Source: Eledone cirrhosa (Eukaryota). Taken from it: a DNA stretch of 64,000 nt. The notes under the pieces are model-generated. The model did no database searches, was not told the origin of the DNA, and saw only the letters and a program-made list of their open reading frames with translations. Of this stretch, positions 9,273 through 18,882 are shown piece after piece; within the stretch, counting starts at the first letter, position 1, and each line of letters opens with the position of its first letter. Where the stretch lies: the NCBI GenBank assembly GCA_964016885.1, contig OZ024740.1, positions 75,454,001 through 75,518,000 on the forward strand. The letters are read 5' to 3'. The position numbers and the translations under genes were made by a program.

Positions 9273-10753
9273 TTTGTTTTATATATATATATATATACAG
9301 AATGACATCACGGCACTGCTCAATAATCTAAAAAACGCCAATGGAATTATTGTTAGAGCAGACAAAACATCAAACGTATATACCATGGATGTGGACACTT
9401 ACAATAACTTCATCCGTAAGAAATTGCATAAAAAATACAAAAAACTAATGAAGCTACACTTACAAACATCAACAACTCGGCATGTGAAATTGTTAAAAAA
9501 CTTTGTATTGACGATAGAACGCAACCTTAACACCAGCTACACCATCCTTCAACCTGAAGGACCATAAGGTAAACTTCGATACTGACCCTAAAATTAGACT
9601 AATATGCCCCTCTAAATCTGATACAGGCAAAATTAGCAAATATATATTAGACAGAATTATCCCCCAAGTTAAGGCTAAAGTAGATATTAAACTATGGGGT
9701 AACACCCATGAGGCAATAAGATGGTTTAATAGCATTACTGATAAGAAGAAATCAAAATTTATTCAGTTCGATATTGATGAGTATTATTCCTCAATCTCAC
9801 CTGATACTCTACATGAAGCCCTTTCGTTCGTTAAGGCTAACTCCGACCTTACGGATGATGAAATTAGTATTATTATCGAAGCGAGGAAAACTATTGTTAA
9901 ATTTGATGATAGCTACTGGGTTCGCAAACATAGACCTTCTAATTTTGATATAACTATGGGTTCCAATGATTCGGCGGAAGTAACTGATCTTGTGGGAATT
10001 TATATCACCCACAGACTACAAGGAAAATTCAAGGATCTCCACGGTGGACTCTACCGTGACGATACGCTCCTATTAGTTAAGCATATGAATAACCAGAATT
10101 TAGAAAGGATGCGTAAAAATATTAGAAAGCTTTTTAAGGAACTAGGATTAAATATTACGTTTGAATATAACCTCAAAGGGGTTAATTTCCTCGATGTTAC
10201 TTTGAATCTCAATACAGAAACGATTAAACCGTTCCATAAACTAAATGAGAACCTTAAATAGGTAAATACGGTTTCTAACCATCCACCCTCTATAATTAAA
10301 TCCATCCCTAGAAATATTTCCCTTAGAATCTCCCGCCTGTCGTCCAACCAGCAAACCTTCAAAGAACATGCCGAATATTATGATGATGCACTTAGAAAGG
10401 CTGGACACCTAGATAATATAGAGTATATAGTCAACGATCACCAAAACACCCAAAATAAATCTCATAGAGGTAAACATAACATAGAATCACCACCATACAT
10501 ACACTACCGCAATAGACACACTAATAGTCGCACACCACCAAACAGAAGGCGATGTAAAGAGTATATATGGTACAACCCGGTCTATAACAACTCTATTAAA
10601 ACCAATCTACCCTCACAATTCTTCCGATTAGTTAAAAAACATTTTCCAACATCACATAAATATAATAAAATCTTAAACCCTAACACTATTCGACTTTCAT
10701 ATTCAACCGCCCCTAATATTGAACAACATATAAAAAAGCTTAACGCAAAACGG

Positions 10754-11323
10754 TTGTATAAACGCCTTACAACACATAACAATACACGTAAAACATCGGC
10801 TATAACATCACAAAACAACAAACAACATCCCGTCCTGCCTAAGCAACCTCATCAACCCATCCATGGTAATACAACAACGCATAATTATAACTGTAACTGT
10901 GTCCAACCAGGAATGTGTCCGTTGAACAATCAGTGTCTTGAACGCAACATCATATACAAATGTACTATCGAATCGGGTAGCCAGAAGTGGTACTATGTGG
11001 GGTCTACAGCTATCTCCTTCAAATCTCGCCTTTATAGACATCGTTACTCGATAAAACATGAAAACCAGCGTTATGTAACAACACTCGCAGACAAGGCTTG
11101 GCAGCTGCGCGAAAATAACCAACAATTTAACCTAAAATGGGATATAATAGCATCTGCCCCTGCATATTTCCAAGGACAGGAATTTTGTAAATTGTGTAAT
11201 ATGAAAATATTTTGTATTATGAAATCCAAAAATATTGTATTAAATAACAGAATAGAGCGATCGTTATACTGTAACCATCGCTTGAAATCTACATTTTCAT
11301 ATTACAAACGCTACCAGGATTGA
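10754..11323 (+). pseudogene. PLE GIY-YIG endonuclease domain
   Basis: NIIYKC..YYVGST..FKSRL..H..CKLCN..LNNR. Confidence 0.85.
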
Positions 11324-14494: not shown

Positions 14495-15019
14495 TTATTG
14501 TTCATTTAGCTTGGGTTTGAATTTATCAATAAAATTCTTTTCTTTGATTTTTCTCTTGATTTCGCTTGGGCTGTGTAATTTGTAGAATGGGAATATTATA
14601 AATATTTCCTGACCACATGTTGCTAGATGGTTACTTAGGGGTATCTGACGGACATTTGGGTCTCTGATTTGCTGACGGTGTACCCGTGCACGTTCTGATA
14701 GTGCATTTCCAGTTTGACCGACATATAGTTCTTCACAATTCGGGCATTTAATGCAGTAAATTAGATTTCTGCTTTTGCAGTTCATATTTGCATTTGGGAA
14801 TATTTTTCCAGTTTTTGTTTTCATATATTGACCGGCGTGTATGGATTGACATGTGCCACATCGACTATCATTGCATTTAGATACAGTGAATGATTGGTCT
14901 TTGTTGTTAAGGTCAAACTTTGCTTTTGTTAGTAATTGCTTCAAATTTTTCGGCTGTCTTTTACTAAGAGTCAAAGATCGATCTGTGATTAAGCCTGAAA
15001 GTACTTGTTCAATTAACAC
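14495..15019 (-). pseudogene. PLE Zn-finger linker plus GIY-YIG endonuclease
   Basis: SKRQPKNLK..C..RCGTC..IYCIKC..YVGQTG..R..H. Confidence 0.9.
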
Positions 15020-16178
15020 TTAACATTTAATATTCTATCATACTATTTTATTATAATACCATTATAAATTTTAAAGGATTGTAAATAAAACGAGTAAATC
15101 AGACAAAGTTGGAATTCCTCTTATTAATATAATCTTCTATACACAATCATACACACCCGTGTATATTTATCTATATATATATATATTAAGACAGGGGGGA
15201 AGAAAAAAATGGCTTCACTTGTGCTTTCAACAAATTTATTTTCTTCACAAAATCCAAAAAGAATTTTTTTCCGGATTAGAAAAAATTTTTTTTTTTAAAT
15301 TTTATAAATTGAGTCGTTGGTTGTTGGTTAGGTCTTAGGAGTTCTTGGTTAACGTAGGAGGTATTGTTTCGTTTTTAGAAAGACCTTTCACGCTGAGGTG
15401 CGCTTGTCAAACTGATGTGTATGTGGTGTGTTGTTCTATATATAGGGATTTAACATGTTTGTGGTGCGGTGGGGGGGTTCTCCCCCTTTAATAAGTGTAG
15501 GGGTGTAGGTGTGTTGAAAAAATGTTAATAGCAGTAATGAGTTGAGACAGTGAGTGGGGAGAAATGTAGCAAGCGCGGCCTGCCCCGGTCATTCTCGAAA
15601 AATTCCTTTATTCAGGGGAAAAAGCTTTTAGTATTCCTTTGTATTAGAAAATGGTCATAGGCAAACCGCACCTGCCAAGCTTGTAAACAATTATTTTTTT
15701 CTGAAGGATTTTTCTACGTCCATCCCAAAATTAGTCCTTTGTTCAACACACACATATGCGCGTATATACGTACATACACACACGGGCATATGTAGGAATA
15801 TATAGGCACACACCATCAATCACACACCCATGTACATATACATCCACATACATACATAAAAACATATAAAGACACATATAAAAACACATATACACATACG
15901 TACACACACGAATATGTACTCATACCTCCACATGGGTATATATATATATATATACATACATATACACATATATACACACATAAAGATACATAACTAAATA
16001 TACATATATACACAGACACACACACATACACACATACATACACGTGTACACACACACACACATATACATATGCCCGTATATATACATCCGTTCACACATA
16101 CATGCATACACACATACACATTTATATATATAGAGAGAGAGAGAGGCATACACACACACATACATATATATATATATA

Positions 16179-16293
16179 TTAGAATTGGAGCTCTGAAATA
16201 GCAATATATATATGGATGTATATATAATGTATTTTGCAATACACTTATATATACATCCATATATATATTGCTATTTCAGAGCTCCAATTCTAA
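16179..16293. repeat. Short fold-back palindrome
   Basis: ttagaattggagctctgaaatagcaat...attgctatttcagagctccaattctaa. Confidence 0.85.
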
Positions 16294-16399
16294 TTTTTAA
16301 TTTCTGCCTGACCAACAACCGCTCTGCATAATCAGCTCCTGATTATTTACTAGATTTCTATAAGAATATAACATCATTGATCTCAGTAGACAGGTGGGT

Positions 16400-16448
16400 A
16401 GTTGGCCTTGATAAGCTTCAACCAAAGCGAAACATGTCATGTCGGCTT
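16400..16448 (+). ncRNA. Hammerhead candidate, U3-A8 core
   Basis: agttggcc-TTGATAA-gctt caacca aagc-GAAA-catg-TC-atgtcggct. Confidence 0.55.
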
Positions 16449-16597
16449 ATCTCCCCTGTTTGCTGAGATCAAAGTGAGTGAATTTGTCACTACTTTAAAA
16501 CAATAGCTTACGGTCTTCAAAATGCTTTTAATTAAGCATAAAGTGTATTGCAAAATACATTATATATACATCCATATATATATATATATATATATAT

Positions 16598-17155
16598 AGA
16601 GGTAAATATTTATATTATATTTTTTAATGTATTTTGAAAAATTGATTGAATTTTACTTGTTCTGCTTATCTTAATATTAGAGTTCTGGTGTATCAAATTA
16701 ACACCATTGAACAACCTTGAATCATAGACAACCTATGTATTTCTAGGGGTACCTAGTATCCCTGGACATATTAACTTCTACCTTTTTCTCCGTCCGTTGA
16801 GAACAAATCTGTTGCTCTACTTGGCTGCTATTTTTTTAGTAGTAATTGTAGACAGCAAGTCTTTGATTTTCCCGCTTTTACTTCGGTCCAGTTTACATAC
16901 GGGTCACTTTTACGACCTTTCAGACCTTTATTAGCTGGCAGGAGGTTGTATATTTTGTCGTTCCTGGGACGTTTAGCCCTAGGATGGGAAAATGCTTCTC
17001 TGATGAGCTTTGGTTTTCCATCATAAATCCATCGGATTTATGAGGTTTTACAAAGCGAAACTGATCAGTAAGGGCCACTAGAAGAGGTAAATATTTATAT
17101 TATATTTTTTAATGTATTTTGAAAAATTGATTGAATTTTACTTGTTCTGCTTATC

Positions 17156-17162
<7 letters not shown>
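16598..17162 (+). mobile_element. Retrozyme/pLTR-like unit: 485-bp monomer plus about 80-bp terminal direct repeat
   Basis: agaggtaaatatt...cttatcttaatat at 16598 and 17083; HHR just upstream of the second copy. Confidence 0.75.
16994..17075 (+). ncRNA. Type I hammerhead ribozyme
   Basis: gcttct-CTGATGA-gctttg..tcataaatcc/ggatttatga..caaagc-GAAA-ctgatcag-TA-agggc. Confidence 0.8.
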
Positions 17163-17234
<72 letters not shown>

Positions 17235-17281
17235 AGACACATACACACATATACATATATATACACACACATATATATATT

Positions 17282-17315
<34 letters not shown>

Positions 17316-17352
17316 CACATACACATACAAACACATACATACACACATACAT

Positions 17353-17449
<97 letters not shown>

Positions 17450-17482
17450 CATATTCATGTGTACACATAAGAAGAGTGGGGG

Positions 17483-18745
17483 TTAGTGAAATGGAATTTT
17501 ACCTCCGAGTGTTAATTCCTTTTTTTTCGTGTTCAGTAGTGGTTTAAATTTTTCAATGAAGAATTCTTCTTTATATCTGCGGAAATGTTCGTTATCCGAC
17601 CATATCTTGAAGAAAGGGAAGATTGTGAATTTTCCCTTCCCGCATGATGCAAAGTGTGCGCTACATGTGGTATTTCTGACTGTGGGGTCTTTAATTTGTT
17701 GTTTATGTACCCGGACTCTATCATGTAGTCCCGTTGCGGTTTCCCCAATGTAATACTCTTTACACTGTGGACATGTTGCGCAATATATTCGGTTTTTCGT
17801 TTTGCAGTTCATGTTTGCATTGACCTTGAAATTATCATGGTTTTTGAAGGACAACTGTTTTCCCTCTTCGATGAGTTCACAGGTTCCACATCTAGGGTCC
17901 CCGCATTTCGTCACTTGCATTGATTCCATGTTGGTCGTAAATTTTGCCTTGGTAATTAGTTTTTTAAGGTTGGGTGCTTGGCGTCTGCTATAAATTATCT
18001 GTGTGTTTTTTAAGAGTGCATTCATTTTGGTAGATTGCTGTAGAATCGGGAGATACTGCTTAGCAGTTTTTACAATGTTGACGTTCCCTGGGTTGTGAGT
18101 GATGACAAAAGAGATAGCAGGGTTTTCTTTTTTATGTTGTAGGTTTGGTTTTCTCAGTGTTGTTATTGGGATGTTCTTAGCCTTGGAGATGGCTGCGTTG
18201 ATGAGTTTCGTCGGGTATTCTTGTTTTTTAAGGAATTTTTTCAGGTCACATAATCTTTTTTCTTGTAGTACGGGGTGTGTTGCTATAGTGCAGATGCGCC
18301 TTGCCATGTTGAAGGGAATGTTCCTTTTCGTATGTGAGGGGTGTGCTGACCGGAAATTTAAGTATTGGTGTGTGTCTGTGGGTTTGCAAAATAGGTCCGT
18401 TATGATATTTTCCCCTTCTTTAATGATGAGGATATCTAGAAAGGGCAGTTCCTTTTCGTTACATTCCATAGTGAATTGTATAGCTTCATGAAGCCTGTTT
18501 AAGATCGAATAAAATTTTTGTAGGTCTGTTTGGCTTCTGTTCCAGAAGATGAAGCAGTCATCTAGGTAACGTTTCCAGTTTTTATTAATGTAGAAGGCGA
18601 AGTCGTGACTGAATGTTATCTGTAGTTGGGAATATAATTTTGCCTCTAAGTGACCCATAACGAGCGTTGCCTATGTAGGGGCCACTTTGGTACCCATGGC
18701 TGTTCCTTTTATTTGTAGATAAAGTTCGTTGTCAAAGAGGAAAAC
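17483..18745 (-). mobile_element. Neptune-like PLE (RT C-half, thumb, Zn finger, GIY-YIG)
   Basis: GTAMGT, WKRYLDDCF, LPFLDI, KPTDTHQYL, CGDPRCGTC, IYCATCPQC..YIGET; ORF 17483-18658. Confidence 0.95.
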
Positions 18746-18882
18746 ATTTTTTCTAATCCGGAAAAAAATTCTTTTTGGATTTTGTGAAGAAAATAAATTT
18801 GTTGAAAGCACAAGTGAAGCCATTTTTTTCTTCCCACTGTCTTAATATACCTAACTGTACCAAGGATTACACACATTTTCCA

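What the first reader, a model, noticed from the sequence alone, without database searches (positions are those of the whole stretch)
16598..17162. 485-bp monomer with about 80-bp terminal redundancy just after the HHR
The direct repeat starts about 12 nt downstream of the predicted cleavage site. This is the footprint expected from copying once around a 485-nt circle plus a little more. No ORF.
Basis: partly seen in the sequence, partly recalled or inferred. Interest (0 to 1): 0.7.

Follow-up and report, generated by a model that had tools for sequence, protein, structure and literature searches.

The report
Hammerhead retrozyme with Penelope insertion footprint
This is one of several hundred recent insertions of a 485-base non-coding repeat that carries a predicted self-cutting RNA motif; it belongs to a known kind (animal retrozymes), but its two fixed ends and its duplicated private mutations suggest that a Penelope-type enzyme likely copies it by running round an RNA circle.

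Summary
Observation confirmed: exact 80-nt repeat at offset 485, starting 12 nt after a predicted type I hammerhead cut, no ORF. The unit is a young dispersed family (734 exact 24-mer hits, 333 ends running into (TA)n, arrays of 17+ units), never seen joined to a Penelope ORF: a non-LTR retrozyme. Its insertions carry the Penelope (PLE) signature: a fixed 3' end 90-92 nt after the cut, a second fixed end about 103 nt further on, and back-to-back two-armed inserts using one of each (33 of 39). Three insertions under two units long carry a rare allele in both copies of their overlap; two such alleles occur nowhere else in the assembly. This favours a circular template but does not prove it. Corrections: the 12-nt offset is one 5' truncation among many (0 of 150 arms stop at the cut); this copy has one ribozyme and could not release a monomer; back-junction reads are not diagnostic; long arrays also grew by local duplication. 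No RNA holder was listed and no autonomous partner found. The scan reported this architecture before in other families and genomes.

The parts
16598..17162 (+). Whole insertion: 1.16 units of a 485-nt non-coding retrozyme, 36% GC, 5'-truncated, single-armed
   Evidence: (L143)
16598..16677 (+). 5' copy of the 80-nt redundancy (unit 1-80); its left end is the point where copying stopped
17083..17162 (+). 3' copy of the 80-nt redundancy
16996..17074 (+). Type I hammerhead: stem I 16996-16999/17071-17074, core 17000-17006, long stem II 17007-17056, GAAA 17057-17060, palindromic stem III 17060-17069, predicted cut between 17070 and 17071
17160..17162 (+). Fixed end A (unit 78-80), 90-92 nt after the predicted cut; inferred reverse-transcription start
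16778..16783 (+). Position of fixed end B (unit 181-186), used by the opposite arm of two-armed insertions elsewhere; internal in this copy
16576..16597 (.). (TA)n target, left flank; it is also the right flank of a 316-nt hammerhead element
17163..17454 (.). (TA)n-rich target, right flank

Best explanation
This is a 5'-truncated insertion of a young, non-coding, hammerhead-bearing 485-nt repeat family (a non-LTR retrozyme), likely written into (TA)n by a Penelope-like RT-endonuclease acting in trans and probably copying a circular monomer. Shown: dispersed family, tandem multimers, conserved and covarying hammerhead, (TA)n targets, two fixed ends, variable 5' ends, two-armed inserts with one end of each kind, one haplotype per insertion. 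Inferred: arrays with two or more ribozymes are transcribed, the ribozyme (probably as a dimer through its palindromic stem III) cuts out monomers, a host ligase closes them, the PLE protein cuts both strands of (TA)n and primes inside the RNA at site A (90-92 nt after the cut) and, from the other DNA end, at site B; each cDNA runs on for a variable distance, often past one turn. In this copy it ran 565 nt from site A, giving the 80-nt redundancy. Some long arrays then grew further by local duplication.
For: Family size and youth. End A at unit 77-82 in 106 arm ends and end B at 180-186 in 23 among 106 pattern-picked loci; same two ends in a 74-88% identical older subfamily. 33 of 39 adjacent back-to-back pairs are A+B. 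Opposite arms agree at 116 of 136 common variable sites, 11% in shuffled pairs; units within an insertion agree at 223 of 241. Rare allele in both copies of the overlap in 3 of 34 young single-arm 1-2-unit inserts; genome-wide 2 hits only for L087 and L029. 126 of 143 arms read through at least one cut site, 38 through two or more; 272 of 294 crossings have the same 11-mer across the cut. Hammerhead: 8 of 25 pairs with two-sided change, stem III palindrome kept in 18 of 18 rows through two different changes. Unit folds far better than shuffles (z -5.3 linear; -7.1 circular). PLE protein in vitro cuts both strands of AT-rich DNA and starts inside the RNA at two sites that give the 'tail' (PMC11167929); its sites lie 85-92 nt after its ribozyme cut (my arithmetic from 111-118 minus 26).
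Against: No autonomous PLE sharing sequence with the unit was found. 16 rare alleles sat in only one overlap copy against 3 in both, and a shared allele also fits a lost or unassembled homogeneous source array, or gene conversion; one of four alleles checked (L070) also occurs in another young copy. Long arrays L082, L083 and L158 show 3-4-unit block repeats that a monomer circle cannot make. Single-arm inserts pile up 8-59 nt after the cut on the second crossing (14 of 38 against 3 of 77 on the first), which could reflect linear cleaved templates. In the PAc study uncleaved RNA was the main substrate in vitro. Stem I is short (4 pairs, two G-U), and 8 of 9 Xenopus retrozyme dimers did not cleave in vitro, so activity here is not assured. 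The tail is about 103 nt, against 30-40 nt in described PLEs.
Confidence: 0.62

Rival explanations
1. Same retrozyme and same PLE-driven insertion, but the template is a linear multimeric transcript, uncut or cut only at an upstream ribozyme; no circle takes part in copying.
For: PAc uses unprocessed RNA in vitro and is proposed to make multi-copy mRNA. Large homogeneous arrays exist as possible sources. Excess of single-arm 5' ends just after the cut on the second crossing.
Against: 0 of 150 arms stop at the cut, and over all crossings the first 60 nt after it show no excess (0.14 against 0.12 stops per 60 nt, p 0.25). Alleles doubled in one insert and absent elsewhere in the assembly. In the arrays printed I saw no ordered unit-variant pattern of one array repeated at another locus; this was read by eye, not counted.
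Confidence: 0.27
2. The unit is the solo pseudo-LTR of an autonomous PLE that I did not reach, and the repeats are by-products of its partial tandems rather than an independent element.
For: All insertion marks are those of PLE pLTRs (PMC8557442, PMC3846280); retrozymes derive from pLTRs (bioRxiv 10.64898/2026.07.22.740005). Only 178 of several hundred loci were read, with 1.5-5 kb flanks and one PLE protein as query.
Against: Upstream of the unit lies another unit or (TA)n, not an ORF: PLE-like hits in 7 of 128, 0 of 20 and 1 of 30 loci, none contiguous (nearest 324, 368, 497 bp; L108 has its own different ribozyme in between; the L195 hit is a 37-aa fragment about 140 bp away, not inspected further). 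Head-to-tail arrays of the bare unit reach 17+ copies.
Confidence: 0.07
3. The redundancy arose at DNA level: local tandem duplication or satellite turnover of an inserted monomer.
For: Block duplications inside long arrays; model favoured for arrays in the 2026 preprint.
Against: 5' ends vary freely while the 3' end is fixed; a 1.5-1.8-unit insert cannot come from a sub-unit insert that lacks the middle part; multi-unit runs occur in both arms of inverted inserts (L078, L162); old subfamilies keep the same ends.
Confidence: 0.04

Closest known systems
Metazoan non-LTR retrozymes (Cervera and de la Pena 2020, PMC7229834: passages and Discussion read; Li, Clavereau and Pollet 2026, 10.64898/2026.07.22.740005: parts 1-3 of 5 read, supplements closed)
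   Same: Non-coding tandem repeats with one type I hammerhead per unit, GC below 45%, monomers to multimers, proposed circular intermediate copied by a PLE.
   Different: 485-nt unit (150-450 in the first paper, 51-972 in the second). In what I read neither paper maps fixed ends, two-armed inserts, (TA)n targeting or doubled private alleles; the preprint leans to local amplification for arrays. Circles and cleavage are shown there, not here.
EN+ Penelope-like elements: PAc of Anolis (PMC11167929, parts 1-2 of 4 read), Adineta Pen2a (PMC3846280, passages), Naiad/Neptune/Chlamys and non-autonomous MRC1 (PMC8557442, passages)
   Same: 5' truncation, partial tandems, inverted 5' copy, one-sided tail, AT-rich or microsatellite targets, internal start a short way after the hammerhead cut.
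   Different: No ORF; tail about 103 nt rather than 30-40; hammerhead has a long stem II and a full stem III, not the minimal form.
Dimer-acting type I hammerheads with palindromic helix III (PMC4209133, passages)
   Same: Self-complementary helix III kept through compensatory changes.
   Different: Helix III here can form 3 pairs plus a tetraloop as a monomer, so dimer dependence is only likely.

Membership tests
Non-LTR retrozyme | Type I hammerhead with intact core in each unit | tested here: met
   (10 non-majority calls of 1795 at 15 core positions, 0.6%, against 2.6% over the unit)
Non-LTR retrozyme | Short head-to-tail repeats, dimers to multimers, dispersed | tested here: met
   this copy itself has only one ribozyme
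Non-LTR retrozyme | Non-coding, GC below 45% | tested here: met
   36% GC, longest ATG frame 34 aa
Non-LTR retrozyme | Self-cleavage of the transcript | not testable with these tools
   prediction only
Non-LTR retrozyme | Expressed as linear and circular monomers | tested here: inconclusive
   no RNA holder listed; four contig sets of unrecorded kind laid cannot show circles
EN+ PLE insertion signature | Fixed 3' end, variable 5' truncation, AT-rich target | tested here: met
   (179 of 180 A/B ends followed by TA repeats; partly built in, as many loci were picked with TA-ending patterns; 85 of 102 single-arm 5' ends also in TA)
EN+ PLE insertion signature | Inverted 5' copy with one-sided tail (two start sites) | tested here: met
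   33 of 39 pairs; tail longer than described
Autonomous PLE or its attached pLTR | RT plus GIY-YIG ORF joined to the repeat | tested here: not met
   (178 loci, one query protein)
Plant LTR retrozyme | Type III hammerhead in true LTRs | tested here: not met
   type I topology; redundancy length varies between copies

The most novel reading that the evidence does not exclude
The genome records rolling-circle, target-primed reverse transcription of a single circular RNA by a Penelope-type enzyme working from both ends of a double-strand cut in (TA)n, at two fixed internal start sites; alleles doubled within one insert and found nowhere else are variants that existed only in the RNA circle, which would point to RNA-level change or replication before insertion.
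Probability: 0.3. Interest if true: 0.75.

Novelty: new member of a known kind. Interest (0 to 1): 0.5.

Why it matters
How animal retrozymes get back into DNA, and whether their abundant circles are the template, has been proposed since 2014-2020 but, in the papers I read, not shown. This family is young enough to give base-level start sites and an allele test, so the question can be put directly: purified PLE protein plus circular or linear unit RNA and a (TA)n target. A retroelement enzyme that copies circles into a double-strand cut from internal start sites would also be of interest for gene-writing. The element class itself is known, and this single copy is an ordinary dead-end insertion.

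Tried and rejected
RNA evidence: no RNA holder listed; X1-X4 are contig sets of unrecorded kind from one study and showed no joints; no evidence either way. A-to-I editing as the source of doubled alleles: two checked alleles are A>G, but private changes show no strand bias (6 A>G, 6 T>C in singly covered sites; 1 of 7 fully shared alleles); not supported. U6-type internal promoter (lead from e1-8667645): 8 U6 loci fetched, 3 upstream regions aligned to the unit scored no better than shuffles, no octamer or A/B box. Spliced copies of a GT..AG stretch at unit 5-85: 0 of 232 crossings. Source units for the doubled alleles: the extra hits were two old-subfamily copies and one young copy covering the site once. 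Autonomous partner: a search with an old-subfamily copy and a loose ribozyme pattern (only the first 100 of 921 rows listed, flanks not fetched) gave only more retrozyme-type ribozymes; other hammerhead elements of the window gave only short AT-rich alignments. Run-off at the ribozyme cut: looked strong in single-arm inserts and vanished over all arms and crossings after correcting 5' ends for common alleles. One search was swamped by (TA)n; the script had an alignment error and was replaced. Rfam gave no family for the unit. Literature searches; none listed a paper on this footprint in retrozymes, but subscription journals and supplements were not seen.

Full report
Observation. The 565-nt stretch is one 485-nt unit plus an exact 80-nt repeat of its start, set between (TA)n tracts. 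A type I hammerhead lies at 16996-17074 with all core letters canonical and a predicted cut after 17070, 12 nt before the second repeat copy. Rfam does not list it. In an alignment of 18 copies that I picked for divergence, 94% of cells form the drawn pairs and 8 of 25 pairs change on both sides; slid controls give 31-48% (the structure was drawn from the window copy, and the copies are related, so these controls are lenient). Stem III is a 10-nt palindrome that stays a palindrome in 18 of 18 rows, through a stem change in 4 and a loop change in 1, which suggests dimer-type cleavage as described in PMC4209133 (passages). The unit is 36% GC, without a useful ORF, and strongly folded.

Family. 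In the window's own 3.0-Gb genome (G000; host not established by my calls) the best matches are 99-100% identical and many are head-to-tail at 485-486 nt (39 of 2012 candidates scored). Exact counts: 734 for a 24-mer near the 3' end, 333 for that end running into TA, 921 for a looser ribozyme pattern that takes in older subfamilies; reversed controls 0. I read 128 loci in detail, 20 more and 30 of an older subfamily. Arrays reach at least 17.6 units (L158, cut by the fetch limit).

Ends. Among 106 loci picked from the pattern lists, arm 3' ends fall at unit 77-82 (106 ends) or 180-186 (23), with 2 elsewhere; the first class is built into the picking, the second is not. A separate pattern confirms many TA junctions at the second site (153 rows, overlapping). 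Of 39 adjacent back-to-back arm pairs in 145 loci, 33 have one end of each kind, and the older subfamily shows the same two ends. This matches the PLE pattern of an inverted 5' copy with a one-sided tail, which PMC11167929 traced to two internal start sites of an enzyme that cuts both strands of AT-rich DNA. Site A is 90-92 nt after the cut; the PAc sites are 85-92 nt after theirs. The two arms share a haplotype (116 of 136 sites against 11% shuffled), so they come from one RNA or one source. 5' ends are spread over the unit; 126 of 143 A/B arms cross at least one cut site and 38 cross two or more (six loci left out as duplicates, gapped or cut off).

Not attached to a PLE. With the window's neighbouring GIY-YIG-bearing protein as query, 7 of 128, 0 of 20 and 1 of 30 loci had hits, none continuous with the unit. 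One query and flanks of 1.5-5 kb limit this test, and the driver was not found.

Circle or linear template. Units within one insertion agree at 223 of 241 common variable sites. In 34 young single-arm inserts of 1-2 units (6053 nt of overlap), 3 rare alleles sit in both overlap copies and 16 in one. Genome-wide, the L087 and L029 alleles occur only at those two places each; the L140 allele has one more hit in a 74%-identical old copy; the L070 allele, in all three units, has two more, one in a young copy. One template unit read twice explains this simply; an unseen homogeneous source or conversion can too. Against reading all arrays as rolling-circle products, L082, L083 and L158 hold repeated 3-4-unit blocks whose pattern breaks at the array ends, and L021 and L053 show period-2 alleles. 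The window copy belongs to a cluster of single-arm inserts that stop 8-59 nt after the cut on the second crossing (14 of 38 against 3 of 77). With all arms, stops are raised over the 120 nt after the cut on that crossing (0.31 and 0.26 per 60 nt against 0.08-0.12), not over all crossings (p 0.25), and none lies 0-7 nt after the cut. A stall after about one turn fits this, as does trimmed run-off from a cleaved RNA helped by likeness to (TA)n; the data do not decide.

This copy. It holds one ribozyme, so it could not by itself release a monomer; arrays with two or more are the likely sources. It abuts a two-armed insertion of a separate 316-nt hammerhead family on its left and lies about 320 bp from an opposite-strand PLE fragment on its right.

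Known and new. The class, the proposed circle and the proposed PLE driver are in print (PMC7229834 Discussion; PMC4209133; the 2026 preprint). In the parts I read and in searches I saw no mapping of PLE start sites, two-armed inserts or doubled alleles in retrozymes; supplements were not seen. Earlier unchecked notes of this scan report the same architecture for 310-, 422- and 468-nt families here and 488-493-nt families in other genomes; I reached my reading before seeing them and do not count them as evidence. No note matched this sequence or place. Verdict: new member of a known kind, with useful mechanistic footprints; interest 0.5.

Noticed in passing
window 16160-16583: Two-armed insertion of a second young hammerhead family with a 316-nt period (98-100% copies, tandem and inverted, 955 candidates). 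Its core reads U3-A8 instead of C3-G8, a natural covariant noted in PMC4209133; weak Rfam HH9 match at 16390-16466. Its ribozyme lies on the same strand about 630 nt upstream of the one studied.
   Followed up: partly
window 17483-18670 (-) and 14495-15019 (-): 5'-truncated PLE ORFs with GIY-YIG domains and a CxxxxCxxC linker that recalls the Neptune clade (label from recall). Both are near an approximately 100-nt segment present at 15200-15300 (+) and 18709-18830 (-) (translations).
   Followed up: partly
window 16602-16682 (unit 5-85): GT...AG stretch of 81 nt that looks like a spliceosomal intron; the GTAAAT start is kept in copies down to 74% identity and site A lies just inside its 3' end. 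No spliced genomic copy in 232 crossings.
   Followed up: partly
window 1006, 839, 1419, 4463, 12751, 19123, 19725, 19863, 22366: Nine further hammerhead-like cores, several in opposed pairs (839/1006, 19725/19863), from other families.
   Followed up: no
window 9518-11323 (+): Two consecutive frames (247 and 353 aa) that read like an RT followed by a YYVG-type endonuclease motif, possibly another PLE clade broken by a stop; not scanned.
   Followed up: no
L035 (G000:C1:58193000-58202000); L064-L066; L145: Whole insertions duplicated together with their flanks (tandem, segmental, inverted), left out of or noted in counts.
   Followed up: partly
G000:C19:31780605-31840331: Tandem cluster of at least 33 U6 snRNA genes at about 1.8-kb spacing.
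   Followed up: no
L081 6409: A 4.7-unit run joined out of register (unit 166 to 87) to an 11-unit run on the same strand with the same 486-nt haplotype.
   Followed up: no
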